From assembly GCF_009914755.1 (NCBI RefSeq), contig NC_060934.1: DNA of 64,000 nucleotides; one strand, 5' to 3'. Position numbers and translations under genes: made by a program. The notes under the pieces are model-generated. The model was not told where the DNA came from. It worked only from the letters and a program-made list of their open reading frames with translations, and ran no database searches. This document shows positions 29,505 through 53,038 of this stretch, piece after piece. Each line of letters starts with the position of its first letter. Position 1 is the first letter of the stretch. This stretch comes from the human T2T-CHM13v2.0 reference genome, Homo sapiens.

Positions 29505-30020
29505 CCTCGAATCCAGCTTTTGATGTCTTCGAGTATTTTCTTGGAGTCTCTTTCCAATGAATACTACTTTCAAATTCTAAGCACAAAGTAAAATCCCAAA
29601 AGTTAGCCCAAATAGCGTTGTACAAAATCAAAGATCACGATGTCAGCAAGCAACTGCATCTATCAGAAGCGATGATGATTCAGAACAGGATAAATTTAGA
29701 ATGGTGTTTTCCAAAAGGCTTTTTGGATGTCAAATTCAGGAAACAGGTAAAGGCTACATCCCAAAAGTTCCTCTCCAAAAAGAACGCCAAAATATTAATA
29801 AAAAGAGTCTTCTTTTTGAAGTTTTTCGTCCCCTAGTGTCCTCGAGGCTGAACTTCCCCAACCTGGCCTCGGTGGAGCCATCCATTACTGGGCAAATCCA
29901 CATGAAACCTGAGGACACTTCAGCCTGGGGAGGACGCAGTCAGAGCAGTGAAGCAACTTCACATGGGACGGGCCTTTTATGGCCTGAACTCGAGAGCCTT
30001 GATACCAGCTCATCTACCAG
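29505..30020 (-). other. SVIL: Alternative first (5'-leader) exon, muscle archvillin-type; 5' end approximate (~29950-30050)
   Basis: Donor GAGG|GTATAA with GT at 29504-29503; unique, repeat-free sequence; adjacent CArG and E-box; sequence recalled from the SVIL muscle leader. Confidence 0.75.
29754..29903 (-). CDS. Candidate 49-aa upstream ORF in the leader exon (MWICPVMDGSTEARLGKFSLEDTRGRKTSKRRLFLLIFWRSFWRGTFGM)
   Basis: Hand translation: ATG 29903, second in-frame ATG 29885 in strong context GTAATGG, TAG at 29756-29754. Translation unproven. Confidence 0.35.
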   Translation of the reverse strand: MWICPVMDGSTEARLGKFSLEDTRGRKTSKRRLFLLIFWRSFWRGTFGM

Positions 30021-30150
30021 AAATAGCCCTGGAAATTCAGAGGAGCCCATCAGCTGTTGCAGCAGGCCTGGCCAGCAGCTACTTCAAATGCAATTAGGTT
30101 GTCCACACTGTCTTTCAGCTTGTTGTATAGAGAAATTAAAAATACAACAG
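29940..30150 (-). promoter_or_regulatory. Candidate muscle promoter: CArG/TATA-like element plus myogenic E-box
   Basis: CCTTTTATGG 29973-29982 (perfect CC(A/T)6GG; CCATAAAAGG on minus); CAGCTG 30051-30056 (AACAGCTG on minus). Confidence 0.6.
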
Positions 30151-31764
30151 CAGTCTACTGAATAAGCTACAACAATACAGATTTGGATGAGCAAACATTT
30201 CTCTAACTTAGTTTTTTTAGGCTAAAAAAAGAGCACACAATCGTTGACAAAGCTCAGACACTGAACACCCCAAAAGTAAGTAACAGACATATATACAATG
30301 AATGCCCGAAAAGTAACTAACAGACATACACATCTATGAAACAGCATGATATAATGGCACATGTCTCTACAAGTTTACAAATTCTGTAACCTCTGTGGAT
30401 TTCTTCCCACTTCCAATAACTGTAGAAAATGAATCATCAGAAGAAAGCATTGTGCTGGAAGTACTTTCTCGAAAATGACACAAATATTTTCTCTTAAAGC
30501 CAAAGTCAGTCCTCTGAACTGGCAAGATCTATCTTCCTATGGCTCTCAGGTAGCTCACCTCACTGAAAAACCAGATGAACCTAACCTAATGAAAAAAATA
30601 TTAACTATGAAGCACAACCACTTCTTAAATGGCCATATGCATTTTTTTAAACATTAAAAGGCCACTGACATGTTGAATACACTCAAACAAATATCACAAC
30701 CCTGTTTACAAAATACTTACAATTGTAGGTCTCTGTCCCTGTCGGTACCAAGAACAGAGAGTCTTAATTGTCTGCACCAACTTCAGTATAAACCACAAAC
30801 CCCATAAGACTTGGGCTGGAGTACAGCAAAAGCTGTGTGCTGCGCGGGGCCTCCCAGTGGTATGCCTCTGGGTGTCAGGGTTCTCAGACCACCAGCTGCT
30901 TCGGCCAGCACAGGAGGCCTCTCAAAGCAGGATCTAAATTCCTGTTACTAATTAACCCTACAGAACAATGCCTCTCCCTAAGAGGACAGTCCTGAGGCCA
31001 GGTGAAAAGATGACAGGTATAATAATTAAACATTGGCTTCATGACTGTTTTGTGCTAGGGGTATTTGTCCCAGTCAACTGTTTTTTTTTTTTTTTACCCA
31101 TCTCAAGATAACAAACAAACAAAATTTCATAGCATGGCTTTTGCATCCTAATCTCAGTCCTGACCCTGATCTTCTTTTCCCTTGGACCATATTGGCTTTT
31201 TCCTCATTTTAAAGTTTATTTGATCTTGTTTTACGTATTTTTATAAGCTGTGGTAAGCCCCTCCCTAGAGAAAAGTAGGGCAAAAATAAATAAAAACTTA
31301 CATGAAACAGTTCACTATTTGGGTCTTCTCTGTAAAGAGAAGATAGGAGGAGAAAATGAATCACTGTTACCACAATAGTGCTATTTCCTTCCTAAAAAAA
31401 GATTCACTCCCACAAAATAAACATCAGTCTTTTGTGTGCCTCTTAAGTTTTTGCACACTGCTTCCCCATAGCAACCAAACTGTCCTAGATTAATACACTG
31501 GAGTCTAATAGGGTAAATCTCCTTCGTCACTTCTTTTATATATCCTTTCTGTCTTTGATTATTTAAATCCCAGTTAATTCTTCCTGTGCAATCCATTTAC
31601 TTTCCTAATTTTTTTGCTATCTGCCTGGCTTAGAAGACTCATCATACTCACTTCTTTCCAATGATGATAATCATGAATTGGAAGAAAAATCAACACACAA
31701 AAGATGTCAATTGTCCCCAAACTGATCTACAGATTAACAAAATTCCTATCAAAATCTTGCAAGG

Positions 31765-32086
31765 TTTTTTTGTTTTGTTTTGTTTTGTTTTGTTTTTTTG
31801 AGACATGGTCTTGCTCTGTTGTCCAGGCTGGAGTAGAGGTGTGCAATCATGGCTCACTGCAGCCTCAACCTCCCCAGGAGGCAGTCCTCCTGCCTCAGCC
31901 TCCTGAATATCTGGGGCTACAGATGTGCACCACCACACTGGGCTAATTTTTTAATTTCTTAGTTTTTGTAGAGATGGAGTCTCATTAGGTTGGCCAGGCT
32001 TGTCTTGAACTCCTGGGCTCCAGCTGTCCTCCCACTTCGGCCTTCTTAAGTGCTAGGATTACAGGTGTGAGCCACCCTGCCTGGCC
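31765..32086 (-). mobile_element. AluJ
   Basis: Antisense Alu dimer. Confidence 0.88.
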
Positions 32087-32179
32087 TCACAGTGATTTTT
32101 GGCAGATATTCTAAAATTTATAGTAAAGGTACAGGCCCTAGAATAGCTAAAAACCATCTTGAAAAAGAAGAAAAAAGTT

Positions 32180-32485
32180 AGTCTGGGCGTGGTGGCTCAT
32201 GCCTGTAATCCCAGCACTTTGGTAGGCCGAGGCGGGTGGATCACCTGAGGTCAGGAGTTCGAGACCAGCCTAATGAACATGGTGAAACACTGTCTCTATC
32301 AAAAATACAGAAAAATTAGCCAGGCGTGGTGGTGCACACCTGTAATCCCAGTTACTAGGGAGGCTAAGGCAGGAGCATCGCTTGAACCCAATCCTGGGAG
32401 GCAGAGGTTGCAGTGAGCCAAGATCATGCCACTGCACTCCAGCCTGGGCCACAGAGTGAGACTCCGTCTCAAAAGAAGAAAAAAG
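32180..32485 (+). mobile_element. AluS
   Basis: TSD AAAAAGTTAG. Confidence 0.9.
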
Positions 32486-50669: not shown

Positions 50670-50843
50670 AATACTGAACAGAAGTGGTGAGAATGGATAT
50701 CCTTGTCTTGTCTCTGAGCTTAGGAGAAAAGCTTTCAGCCCTTCACCATTCAGTGTCATGTTAGCTGTGGGTTCTTCATAGATGTCTTTTTCAGGTTGAA
50801 GAAGTTCCCTTCTATTCCTAGTCTGTTGAGTGTGTATGTGTGG

Positions 50844-51138
50844 GTTTTTTTTTTTTTTTTCTGTTTCTTTTGGAGTTTTGCTCTGTCACTGGAGTGCAGT
50901 GGCATGATCTTGGCTCACTGCAACCTTAGACTTCTGTTCAGGTGCTTCTCCTGCCTCAGCCTCCCGAGTAGCTGGGACTACAGGTATGTGGCACCACGCC
51001 CAGCTAATTTTTGTATTTTTAGTAGAGATGGGGTTTCACCATGTTGGCCAGGATGATCTCGATCTCCTGACCTCATGATCTGCCTGCCTCGGCCTCCCAA
51101 AGTGCTGGTATTACAGGTGTGAGCCACCGTGCCTGGCC
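50844..51138 (-). mobile_element. AluSc-like
   Basis: Antisense Alu dimer. Confidence 0.88.
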
Positions 51139-51399
51139 GAGTGTGAGTGTTTTTTTTTTTTTTAAAAACATGAAGAGGCATTCGATTTTGTCAAATGCTT
51201 TCTCTGCACAAGACATCCTCTTTGCCTTTGCTTTTCAATCTGGAAGCTTTTTCTATGCCACCCGCATAACTTGCTATTTCTCATTCTTACAAGTCTCTAC
51301 TTCAGGGCATTCCTGGATCATCCTATTTTAAAGTCCCCACCCATCACTCTATCTTCTCCATTCATGCAACCACAGAACCTTCAAAGTACTCAGCCATTA

Positions 51400-51853
51400 T
51401 GAAACCAACCCAACAGTCCCATATAGCTTTTTTTTTTAAAAAAAAGAATAAATAAACATAGAAATTGAACTTTCTGGTCTTAACATTTGAAACTTATATT
51501 TGTTTTATCTGAGATCCTTCCTCAGGAAATGACCTTCAGGCCTCTCAAAAAAAGTATCAAAGAAATGAAACTCACCAGATCACATCCAGACAATAAAATG
51601 TGGACGCTGATTCAACATGATTGCTTCCAAGCCCCTTCTGAGTTCCTGTTTTCCCACACATGATTACATTTCTTCCCTGCTATATAGCCAGTTTTGGTCA
51701 GTCAGAGAGATGGATTTGAGACTGAGCTCCCATCTCCTCGGCTGCAGCACCCAATTAAAGCCTTCTTCCTTGGCAACACTTGTTGTCTCAGGCATTGGCT
51801 TTCTGTGCAGTGAGCAGCAGGACCCAGATTGAACCCCTGGTGTTTTGGTAACA
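51400..51853 (+). mobile_element. Solo LTR, LTR47A-like
   Basis: TGAAACCAACCCAA...GGTAACA, TSD ATTA, TATATA and ATTAAA signals. Confidence 0.75.
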
Positions 51854-52938
51854 ATTACTATTAATATATGTACATATTCTGATGACACTTGTATTAATAT
51901 AAAGTTTGGTATTTGCCAGCACATATTCATAATTTTAGTCCTTGCAATAATAGTATCTACAAAGTGAATACTATTATAAGCATCTTACACATAAGGAAAT
52001 TGAAAGAGAGGTTACATGTCTTTTCCAAGATCATGCAGTTTATTAAGTGTCAAACCCAGGATTAAAACCCAAGCCACTGAGCTGCAGATACCAGGCTCTT
52101 AAACATTTGCTATTGTGTCTCTCAATGATTACCTTTCCTTAATTGTTAATGTATTTATTATCTAAACATGAGCACTGTCAACCTCAGTTTTTGCTGCATC
52201 CCTAGCATCTAACACCATCCATGGCTGGTGCGCAATCAATATTTAATGAACAAATGGAACACTGGTCTTAAGATGCCTCACAAGAAAATAGTTCCATGGA
52301 ACTCTGGTGAGCACTGCCCACTACTCACACCCATCAAGATTCACAAAGCTCATTAGTTTTGAAGAAGGTCATTTAACTTTAATCCAATGCTTTCCAAACG
52401 CACTTAGGCATAGACCCATCCTCTGACCCAGGTCCCCACTGTATTAGTGGTGTAGGGAGCTGTGTTCCAGGGAACACACTTTGAGAACTCCTGCTCCAGA
52501 GAGGCAGGTCAAATAGCACAGTTTCCAGAAGGGTGCTCCTGTTCTCACTCCTTTGGCTGGCTCTGCTCCTATGTAAAGGTCCTATCTAATTCACACTCCC
52601 CGAAAGCTCCCTAATAGCCACGGCTCAGCTCAGAAAGAAAACCACAGCTGTAAGCTTTCCTGTTCTTTCCTGAAGTTCATAAAGGGCACACTGGGACACA
52701 TGACCATCGAGGAAAAATGAAGACATTTCCAACCATCACAGTGGCTCAGCTCTCCTGTATGTCTATGGTTCCACACCGCATCACAGAGGCCGCTTTAATC
52801 TTCTTCGAGCTCTGGTTTGTTGAACATGATTCAAACAAAATCACCCTTCACAATGTGCTTTAATCTCTTCTAACAGTGCAAGCAAAGCCAATAATGTGTT
52901 AACCACAAAAGTGTCATATTTCTTTCCTCAATACTTAC

Positions 52939-53038
52939 CTTAACGCCGATATTTAAATCATGGCTTCGATGTGAAATGACTTCAAAATCATCATATCTCA
53001 GCTTTTCAAGTCCTCAAGGCCATCCACTTGAACTCTCT
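52939..53038 (-). other. SVIL: 100-nt internal 5'-UTR exon of the non-muscle leader
   Basis: Acceptor TTTGTCCTTTTTCAG| (AG at 53040-53039), consensus donor AAG|GTAAGT; sequence recalled from the SVIL leader. Confidence 0.8.

What the first reader, a model, noticed from the sequence alone, without database searches (positions are those of the whole stretch)
29505..53038. Three alternative leader exons may act as a switch for a hidden N-terminal extension of supervillin
Recalled, outside this window: the ~200 nt of shared SVIL 5' UTR before the annotated MKRKER start has no in-frame stop and reads like protein (DFNKKNLSFLG...LPKVAELRQIFEPKKKEFLE-M). It is entered in phase 1 (G|AT). Seen here: three minus-strand donors all end in G. 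In that phase the 52.9-kb exon has TAA immediately before the junction (52942-52940). The 29.5-kb muscle exon is open for 43 codons with no ATG. A candidate exon at 43.1 kb gives two in-frame ATGs. Inference: promoter or exon choice selects between no extension from the exon, a non-AUG extension, and an AUG-initiated ~75-85-aa extension.
Basis: partly seen in the sequence, partly recalled or inferred. Interest (0 to 1): 0.8.

Follow-up and report, generated by a model that had tools for sequence, protein, structure and literature searches.

The report
Unannotated N-terminal extension of human supervillin
Three exons listed as untranslated leader in the human supervillin gene look like ancient protein-coding exons, and which first exon a transcript uses seems to decide whether about 75-87 extra amino acids are added to the front of the protein.

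Summary

- **Shared leader:** it lies outside the window, in three exons of 58, 92 and 50 nt before the ATG. It is 200 nt, stop-free in the ATG's frame and entered in phase 1, provided exon B uses the acceptor that every extended vertebrate model uses.
- **Annotated human leaders:** both put a stop in the last full codon before the junction. These are TAA at 52942-52940 and TGA at 29401-29399.
- **The error:** The "non-AUG via muscle exon" arm therefore falls.
- **The 43.1-kb candidate exon:** it matches, 17 of 17 residues, the first coding exon of gorilla and orangutan supervillin models. A second AUG leader lies at 43512-43494.
- **A deeper AUG leader:** an exon beginning MFRSPG lies at window -33.9 kb and is intact in human. 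Its counterpart starts the protein in 95 of 120 listed fish and turtle models, and 114 of those 120 carry the extension.
- **Conservation:** human extension identity is 97% to orangutan, about 84% to dog, horse and goat, 56% to turtle and 52% to gar.
- **Not shown here:** human use of these leaders and translation of the extension. One published ribosome-profiling list includes SVIL. The same paper's PhyloCSF list does not.

The parts
52939..53038 (-). RefSeq internal non-coding leader exon of non-muscle SVIL transcripts. TAA at 52942-52940 is the last full codon before the phase-1 junction, so it closes the shared frame.
   Evidence: Hub gene table; acceptor TTTTCAG| and donor AAG|GTAAGT read (9 of 9 consensus); frame.
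43087..43141 (-). Coding part of an exon unannotated in human. ATGs at 43141 and 43111 are in frame with the shared exons and the annotated ATG (85 and 75 codons upstream). The donor is CAG|GTAAGG after 43087. The 5' end of the exon is unknown.
   Evidence: tblastn of gorilla and orangutan model N-termini gave 17 of 17 residues at 43141-43091. Related leaders in bats, rodents and bears. Contexts are GGGTAG|ATG|C (weak) and GGTGAC|ATG|A (better).
43494..43512 (-). Second AUG-bearing leader end, unannotated in human: ATG ATG AGG GTC GGG CAA G|GTCAGT, also phase 1. It would give a 73-residue extension.
   Evidence: It matches the starts of a Macaca fascicularis model (MTRVGQ) and Equus asinus models (MTGVRQ).
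29398..29949 (-). RefSeq exon 1 of NM_021738.3, the muscle (archvillin) leader. TGA at 29401-29399 is the last full codon before the junction, so it closes the shared frame.
   Evidence: Hub gene table; donor GAA|GTAAGT read; frame. 'Muscle-specific 5' leader' in PMC7447519 (passages).
29754..29903 (-). 49-codon AUG upstream ORF inside the muscle leader, catalogued as Ribo-seq ORF c10riboseqorf25.
   Evidence: Located. Table S1 of PMC10032668 lists it as uORF, 'conserved', 1 MS study, PhyloCSF -90.42 (primates) and -706.75 (mammals).
29505..29505 (-). It is not the annotated one and is weak.
   Evidence: AGG|GTATAA, 5 of 9 consensus positions. The RefSeq exon runs on to 29398.
1..1 (-). Placeholder row. 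The form takes only coordinates 1-64000, and the features below lie outside the window on its low side (minus strand, window coordinates under 1).
- -33924..-33984: AUG leader coding MFRSPGFSSYLGAFKFSEKQ plus G, intact in human.
- -28825..-28857: a further AUG leader, matched by chimpanzee models.
- -35640..-35697: shared exon A, 58 nt, entered in phase 1.
- -41660..-41751: shared exon B, 92 nt with acceptor TTTTTAG|C. An AG 7 nt downstream would give 85 nt and shift exon A's frame.
- -49844..-49901: shared exon C, which holds the annotated ATG (ATG AAA AG|GTAAGA).
   Evidence: Exons A-C. Every extended model reads ...SFQKEF..., which requires the upstream acceptor of exon B.

MFRSPG leader: 20 of 20 residues to orangutan models and 17 of 20 to goat. 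Context GCAGCC|ATG|T, donor AAG|GTAAGG. 47 of 130 mammal proteins and 95 of 120 listed fish and turtle proteins start this way.

Chimpanzee-type leader.

Best explanation
The three exons that human RefSeq treats as shared SVIL 5' UTR are ancestral coding exons of vertebrate supervillin. They form a 67-codon open frame that every leader exon enters in phase 1.

Leader choice then sets the N-terminus:
- **Annotated human leaders.** The 52.9-kb exon and muscle exon 1 each end in a stop codon plus one base. Nothing can read through, and translation starts at the internal Met (MKRKER).
- **AUG-bearing leaders, unannotated in human.** These lie at 43.1 kb and 43.5 kb in the window, and at -28.8 kb and above all -33.9 kb outside it. 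They would open the frame and add 73-87 residues.

What is shown and what is inferred:
- Shown: the frames, the stops and ATGs, the orthology to other species' models, and deep protein-level conservation.
- Inferred: that human tissues transcribe and translate the AUG leaders, and that the extension changes function.

The extension is predicted to be mostly disordered, with a conserved LPKV.EL..FE motif.
For: - **Frames.** The leader is 200 nt, phase 1, with 0 in-frame stops. TAA and TGA are the last full codons of the two RefSeq leaders. In-frame ATGs lie at 43141 and 43111 and at 43512 and 43509.
- **Exon count.** Papers give 35 coding exons (PMC7447519 and PMC6192639, passages). The hub table gives NM_021738.3 38 exons. 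That leaves three non-coding exons: the leader, A and B.
- **Mammal models.** A search with exon B's genomic ORF found 41 of 41 candidates to be supervillin models holding that peptide. A search with the gorilla extension found 363 proteins at E<=1 among 400 candidates, of which 120 were listed. Together the lists name 42 mammal species or hybrids. One is a 2300-aa Pan paniscus 'supervillin' that represents a cluster of 241 sequences.
- **Fish and turtle models.** A full-length profile search ranks hits over about 2300 positions, so the extension barely affects the order. Of its best 120 hits, 114 carry the extension and 95 start MFRNPWI-like. They include Danio rerio, Lepisosteus oculatus, Amia and Chrysemys picta.
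- **Unnamed representatives.** In the 50%-identity library HMMER aligned the whole extension and the canonical N-terminus as a single stretch, for example profile positions 2-143 at E = 1.7e-42.
- **Divergence gradient.** Identity of the human 87-residue extension falls with distance and all gaps are in frame: 97% (Pongo), 82-86% (dog, horse, goat, mole-rat, bat), 56% (turtle), 52% (gar), 33% (zebrafish).
- **Conserved motif across a splice junction.** LPKV is invariant across 18 sequences from fish to mammals and spans the exon B/C junction. The first Met is also invariant.
- **Published translation signal.** SVIL is in the relaxed ribosome-profiling set of predicted N-terminal extensions. 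It appears in the sheet GeneOntology_RiboSET_ext, in the focal adhesion row with 100 of 3304 genes (PMC9789052 supplements).
Against: - No human protein with the extension appeared in either list: all 41 hits, and the 120 listed of 363. Clusters at 90% identity could hide one.
- Human RefSeq in this window has 'coding none' (hub table).
- SVIL is absent from Supplementary Data 1 of PMC9789052 (0 occurrences). That file holds PhyloSET, which requires a strictly positive PhyloCSF score over the 50 codons upstream in 120 mammals. The extension therefore probably did not score positive. The same paper found only 11 of 24 annotated non-AUG extensions positive.
- The examined PhyloCSF candidate regions of PMC6886504 list only an SVIL pseudogene. 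8 files were searched and 2 were not.
- No mouse or rat model was among the rows shown.
- A 2026 preprint names SVIL-201 as the predominant heart transcript and SVIL-203 as the non-muscle form (passages). That text does not describe their leader exons. If they correspond to the stop-closed RefSeq leaders, the extended form would be minor in those tissues.
- Searches seeded with the extension can only find models that have it.
- I could not see a human mRNA, so which exon B acceptor human transcripts use is inferred.
Confidence: 0.62

Rival explanations
1. Relic in human. The exons were coding in the vertebrate ancestor and still are in fish and reptiles. In human, and perhaps mammals generally, the gene is driven from promoters whose leaders close the frame. 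The extension is then made rarely or never, and exons A-C act only as 5' UTR.
For: Both curated human leaders end in a stop. No human extended protein appeared in the lists. SVIL is not in PhyloSET. The reported predominant heart transcript is SVIL-201.
Against: All the human pieces are intact: four AUG leaders, their donors and the 67-codon frame. 32 of the 66 shared codons are one base change from a stop. Identity to other mammals is 82-97% with no gaps. SVIL is in the ribosome-profiling extension set.
Confidence: 0.22
2. Non-AUG extension. On the annotated transcripts, ribosomes start at a near-cognate codon inside exons A-C and make a shorter extension without any alternative leader.
For: SVIL is listed in RiboSET_ext, a set built to find non-AUG extensions on annotated transcripts. 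The frame is open for 67 codons.
Against: The only in-frame near-cognate codons are AAG (4), AGG (1) and ATC (2). There is no CTG, GTG, ACG or TTG. From general knowledge, not a call, AAG and AGG are the weakest near-cognates. Footprints on shared exons would arise equally from unannotated AUG-leader transcripts. The predicted start for SVIL is in Supplementary Data 2, a text file too large to read here.
Confidence: 0.1
3. Chance open frame plus annotation artefact. Gene predictors extend to any upstream in-frame ATG, so the extended models prove nothing.
For: From human sequence alone a 64-codon stop-free stretch is not rare (0.048-0.059). 4 of 23 strong donor-like sites in the window have an ATG-opened frame in phase 1.
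Against: A chance frame would not keep the same Met, the same motifs and in-frame gaps from gar to human. It would also not be present in 114 of 120 models ranked on full length.
Confidence: 0.03

Closest known systems
N-terminal proteoforms made by alternative promoters or first exons (general class reviewed in PMC13082882; search listing only)
   Same: Alternative leader exons join one common acceptor. Some carry an in-frame AUG and lengthen the protein, and others do not.
   Different: Here the exons read as 'UTR' in the human reference are the ancestral coding sequence. Both annotated leaders close the frame with a stop in the very last full codon before the junction.
[quoted passage not shown]
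   Same: An open, in-frame stretch lies upstream of the annotated AUG. SVIL is in the relaxed ribosome-profiling set of the 2022 paper.
   Different: No strong near-cognate codon lies in frame. Upstream AUGs exist on unannotated leaders, so a non-AUG mechanism is not needed. SVIL is not in the paper's PhyloCSF-supported set.
Known supervillin isoforms SV1 to SV5, including archvillin (PMC6192639, PMC7447519; passages)
   Same: Same gene, with tissue-specific leaders and exon choice. The muscle leader at 29398-29949 is the published archvillin 5' leader.
   Different: [quoted passage not shown] The extension would be an extra axis of variation at the extreme N-terminus. From recall, not a call, that end lies next to the region reported to bind myosin II.

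Membership tests
Alternative-first-exon N-terminal proteoform | Two or more leader exons splice to the same downstream acceptor | tested here: inconclusive
   The hub table gives two human leaders. Other species' models join four further leader types to exon A. No human junction data were available.
Alternative-first-exon N-terminal proteoform | An upstream AUG in one leader is in frame with the annotated coding sequence, with no stop between | tested here: met
   ATGs at 43141, 43111, 43512, 43509, -28825 and -33924 are all open to the annotated ATG when exon B is 92 nt.
Alternative-first-exon N-terminal proteoform | The added residues evolve as protein | tested here: inconclusive
   Protein-level conservation from fish to human, with in-frame gaps and an invariant motif across a splice junction, argues yes. 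No codon-level test was possible because only human DNA was available. A published PhyloCSF screen in mammals did not list SVIL.
Alternative-first-exon N-terminal proteoform | The longer protein is made | not testable with these tools
   Only indirect evidence: SVIL is in RiboSET_ext. No paper text holds five tryptic peptides of the extension.
Non-AUG extended proteoform | An in-frame near-cognate start in a favourable context, with no upstream in-frame AUG available | tested here: not met
   Only AAG, AGG and ATC lie in frame. In-frame AUGs exist on alternative leaders.
Upstream-ORF translational control (muscle leader) | An AUG-initiated ORF in the leader with ribosome footprints | tested here: met
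   The 49-codon ORF at 29903-29754 equals catalogued Ribo-seq ORF c10riboseqorf25. Its effect on SVIL translation was not tested.

The most novel reading that the evidence does not exclude
The true ancestral N-terminus of vertebrate supervillin lies 87 residues upstream of the start used in the supervillin papers I read (MFR.P.I..Y ... LPKV.EL..FE). Mammals then added promoters whose leaders end in a stop, which produces a clipped protein. Promoter choice would therefore switch a conserved short-motif module on and off at the very N-terminus of the protein. Variants in SVIL's so-called 5' UTR exons would be coding variants in a cardiomyopathy and myopathy gene.
Probability: 0.4. Interest if true: 0.7.

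Novelty: new member of a known kind. Interest (0 to 1): 0.62.

Why it matters
- **Disease gene.** SVIL loss-of-function variants cause a myopathy (PMC7447519) and raise the risk of hypertrophic cardiomyopathy (PMC11906354, search listing; bioRxiv 10.64898/2026.07.01.735949, passages).
- **Variant interpretation.** If exons A-C and the AUG leaders are coding in some human transcripts, variants now filed as 5' UTR or intronic could be missense, nonsense or start-loss.
- **Proteomics.** Peptides from the extension cannot be identified if reference protein databases lack them. No human protein carrying the extension appeared in the lists.
- **Experiments.** Constructs and antibodies built on the annotated start may miss part of the protein. 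One antibody study used 'the first 340 amino acids' (PMC6192639, passage).
- **Annotation.** This is a concrete case for curators. Other species' automatic models carry the extension, while the curated human RefSeq transcripts in the hub table do not.

Tried and rejected
- **A wrong first reading.** I first took the AG 7 nt downstream as exon B's acceptor (85 nt, 193-nt leader). The shuffle statistics were computed on that 193-nt version.
- **Literature.**
  - Searches for supervillin with leader, extension, non-AUG, uORF, alternative promoter or start terms found no paper describing an extension.
  - The supplement of Ivanov 2011 could not be read.
  - Supplements of a C2C12 ribosome-profiling paper list Svil only as differentially expressed.
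- **Pfam.** No family covers the extension in three extended proteins.
- **AlphaFold2.** On an 18-row alignment of an orangutan N-terminus the mean pLDDT was 58.9 and pTM 0.20, with only short helices. This was too weak to justify a fold search.
- **Not tried.** A codon-level selection test, because only human DNA was available, and complex prediction.

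
Full report
**Setting.** The window is T2T chr10:29636001-29700000 and SVIL lies on the minus strand. The whole genome is held.

**What the window shows.**
- The 52.9-kb exon (RefSeq 52939-53038) has an AG acceptor and the donor AAG|GTAAGT. Its last bases are TAA G.
- At 43.1 kb the sequence reads TAG ATG ... ATG ... ACA G|GTAAGG. 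The ATGs are at 43141 and 43111 and the donor follows 43087.
- The muscle leader is RefSeq 29398-29949. Its annotated donor is GAA|GTAAGT and its last bases are TGA A.
The other three sites match 9, 8 and 7 of 9.

**The shared leader.** A six-frame search found the recalled peptides at window -35639 and -49843. Reading the DNA gave three exons.
- Exon A is 58 nt and follows CCCTTAG|.
- Exon C holds ATG AAA AG|GTAAGA.
- Exon B came from a pattern search for ...LPK + G + GT between them, which gave a single match.

Exon B has two AG dinucleotides 7 nt apart. I first took the downstream one.

**What changed my reading.** I searched the 5.8-billion-protein collection with the genomic ORF across exon B. 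It returned 41 of 41 candidates as supervillin models whose N-termini contain that peptide.

Their sequences read ...DFNKKNLSF...RKVS-SFQKEF...LPK-VAELRQ...-MKRKER.

With that acceptor exon B is 92 nt and the leader is 200 nt. Entry is in phase 1 and the ATG frame has no stop, while the other two frames have four each.
- TAA directly before the 52.9-kb junction.
- 43 open codons without an ATG for the 29505 donor.
- ATGs 85 and 75 codons upstream of the annotated start in the 43.1-kb exon.
- In addition, the annotated muscle donor puts TGA directly before the junction.

Independent support for exons A and B comes from exon counts. Papers give 35 coding exons (PMC7447519 and PMC6192639, passages). 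The hub table gives NM_021738.3 38 exons.

**The candidate exon is real in other primates.**
- Gorilla and orangutan models begin MPVRCGDPGDMKGEEQK..., which maps to window 43141-43091 at 17 of 17 residues.
- Macaque and green monkey models begin at the second ATG.
- Hipposideros bats, Arvicanthis, Cricetulus and bears have related leaders.
- A second AUG leader ends at 43494 in the same phase (MMRVGQ plus G|GTCAGT). It matches a Macaca fascicularis start and Equus asinus starts.
- Outside the window, a chimpanzee leader maps to -28825..-28857.

**The deepest start.** A leader coding MFRSPGFSSYLGAFKFSEKQ maps to -33924..-33983 at 20 of 20 residues. In human it has the context GCAGCC|ATG|T and the donor AAG|GTAAGG.

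**Breadth in mammals.** A search with the gorilla extension found 363 proteins at E<=1 among 400 candidates, of which 120 were listed. Together, the lists name 42 mammal species or hybrids:
- 14 primates
- 3 bats
- 3 equids
- 6 carnivores
- 5 rodents
- rabbit
- 9 artiodactyls
- platypus

Of the 130 proteins, 47 start MFRSPG-like and 30 use the 43.1-kb type of leader. These searches can only find models that have the extension, so they do not give a frequency.

**Less biased samples.**
- A profile covering the extension plus 60 canonical residues was run over 1.84 billion cluster representatives and gave 76 hits. Long representatives align in one stretch from the MFR... start through the canonical N-terminus. 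Four of more than 400 residues start at the internal Met.
- A full-length profile of seven such proteins was then searched. The extension is a small part of its roughly 2300 positions. It found 3363 proteins, and the best 120 are named fish and turtles.
- Of those 120, 114 carry the extension and 6 start at MNRKER. 95 begin MFRNPWI-like. They include Danio rerio, Lepisosteus oculatus, Amia ocellicauda and Chrysemys picta.

**Conservation of the human extension** (the human reading was assembled in a script):

| Species | Extension (87 residues) | First 55 canonical residues |
|---|---|---|
| Orangutan | 97% | 100% |
| Dog, horse, goat, mole-rat, Rousettus | 82-86% | 91-96% |
| Painted turtle | 56% | 91% |
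| Gar | 52% | 79% |
| Bowfin | 49% | 81% |
| Zebrafish | 33% | 71% |

- There are no gaps within mammals and only in-frame gaps beyond them.
- Across 18 aligned sequences the first Met and the LPKV.EL..FE motif are invariant. LPK|V spans the exon B/C junction.
- 32 of the 66 shared human codons are one base change from a stop.

I read this as an ancestral coding region, not a conserved untranslated element.

**Evidence on the other side.**
- I saw no human extended protein and no mouse or rat model in the rows shown.
- SVIL is not in the PhyloCSF-positive set of Fedorova et al.. That test recovered only 11 of 24 annotated non-AUG extensions.
- The manually examined PhyloCSF regions of Mudge et al. 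list only an SVIL pseudogene, and two of the files were not searched.
- The reported predominant human heart transcript is SVIL-201, and SVIL-203 is the non-muscle form. That text does not state their leader exons.

In favour of translation in human cells, SVIL is in the same paper's relaxed ribosome-profiling set. The in-frame near-cognate codons are only AAG, AGG and ATC. I therefore think unannotated AUG-leader transcripts explain such footprints better than non-AUG starts. That is inference, and the file holding the predicted start could not be read.

**What the extension might do.** No Pfam family covers it. AlphaFold2 gives low confidence (mean pLDDT 58.9) and short helices at residues 47-54, 62-66 and 71-78, followed by the canonical helix at 90-99. 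It looks like a disordered segment with a conserved short motif. Any role in partner binding is speculation.

**Also in the span.** The muscle leader carries a 49-codon AUG upstream ORF at 29903-29754. It is the catalogued Ribo-seq ORF c10riboseqorf25. This is a separate and better documented way in which that leader can affect translation.

**Verdict.** The likely truth is an annotation gap in a disease gene. Leader choice closes or opens an ancient N-terminal extension of supervillin. The mechanism class is well known, and the case appears to be undescribed for human in the papers I could search.

Noticed in passing
window 29754-29903 (-): A 49-codon AUG upstream ORF in the muscle leader equals GENCODE Ribo-seq ORF c10riboseqorf25. 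It is listed as conserved in structure, seen in 1 MS study, and PhyloCSF-negative. It could damp translation of muscle transcripts.
   Followed up: partly
window 29399-29401 and 52940-52942 (-): Both annotated leaders end in a stop codon plus exactly one base, so the stop is the last full codon before the phase-1 junction. This could be chance helped by the donor consensus. It could also reflect selection to keep upstream translation out of the shared frame. I did not test conservation of these stops.
   Followed up: no
window -41660 / -41667 (L006, -): Exon B has tandem acceptor AGs 7 nt apart. Both choices leave a stop-free reading to the ATG, using different frames in exon A. The downstream one would disconnect every AUG leader from the coding sequence.
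   Followed up: partly
window 43087-43141 (-): The T2T human sequence reads ...EEQK-T, where gorilla, orangutan and macaque models read ...EEQKKT. This is an in-frame one-codon difference. Whether it is fixed or polymorphic in humans is unknown.
   Followed up: no
window -38307..-38348 (-): A Nasalis larvatus 'hypothetical protein' starts with a 14-residue leader that maps between exons A and B (12 of 14 residues in human). It then skips exon C. This is probably a model artefact or a rare isoform.
   Followed up: no
L006 8250-8438 (-), upstream of exon B: Two orangutan models and one macaque model start inside the intron just upstream of exon B and read through into it. In human that stretch has a stop in the matching frame.
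   Followed up: no
PMC10032668 supplements: SVIL-AS1, the antisense gene, encodes a 14-residue peptide detected by targeted mass spectrometry in K562 cells and heart. It is not in this window.
   Followed up: no
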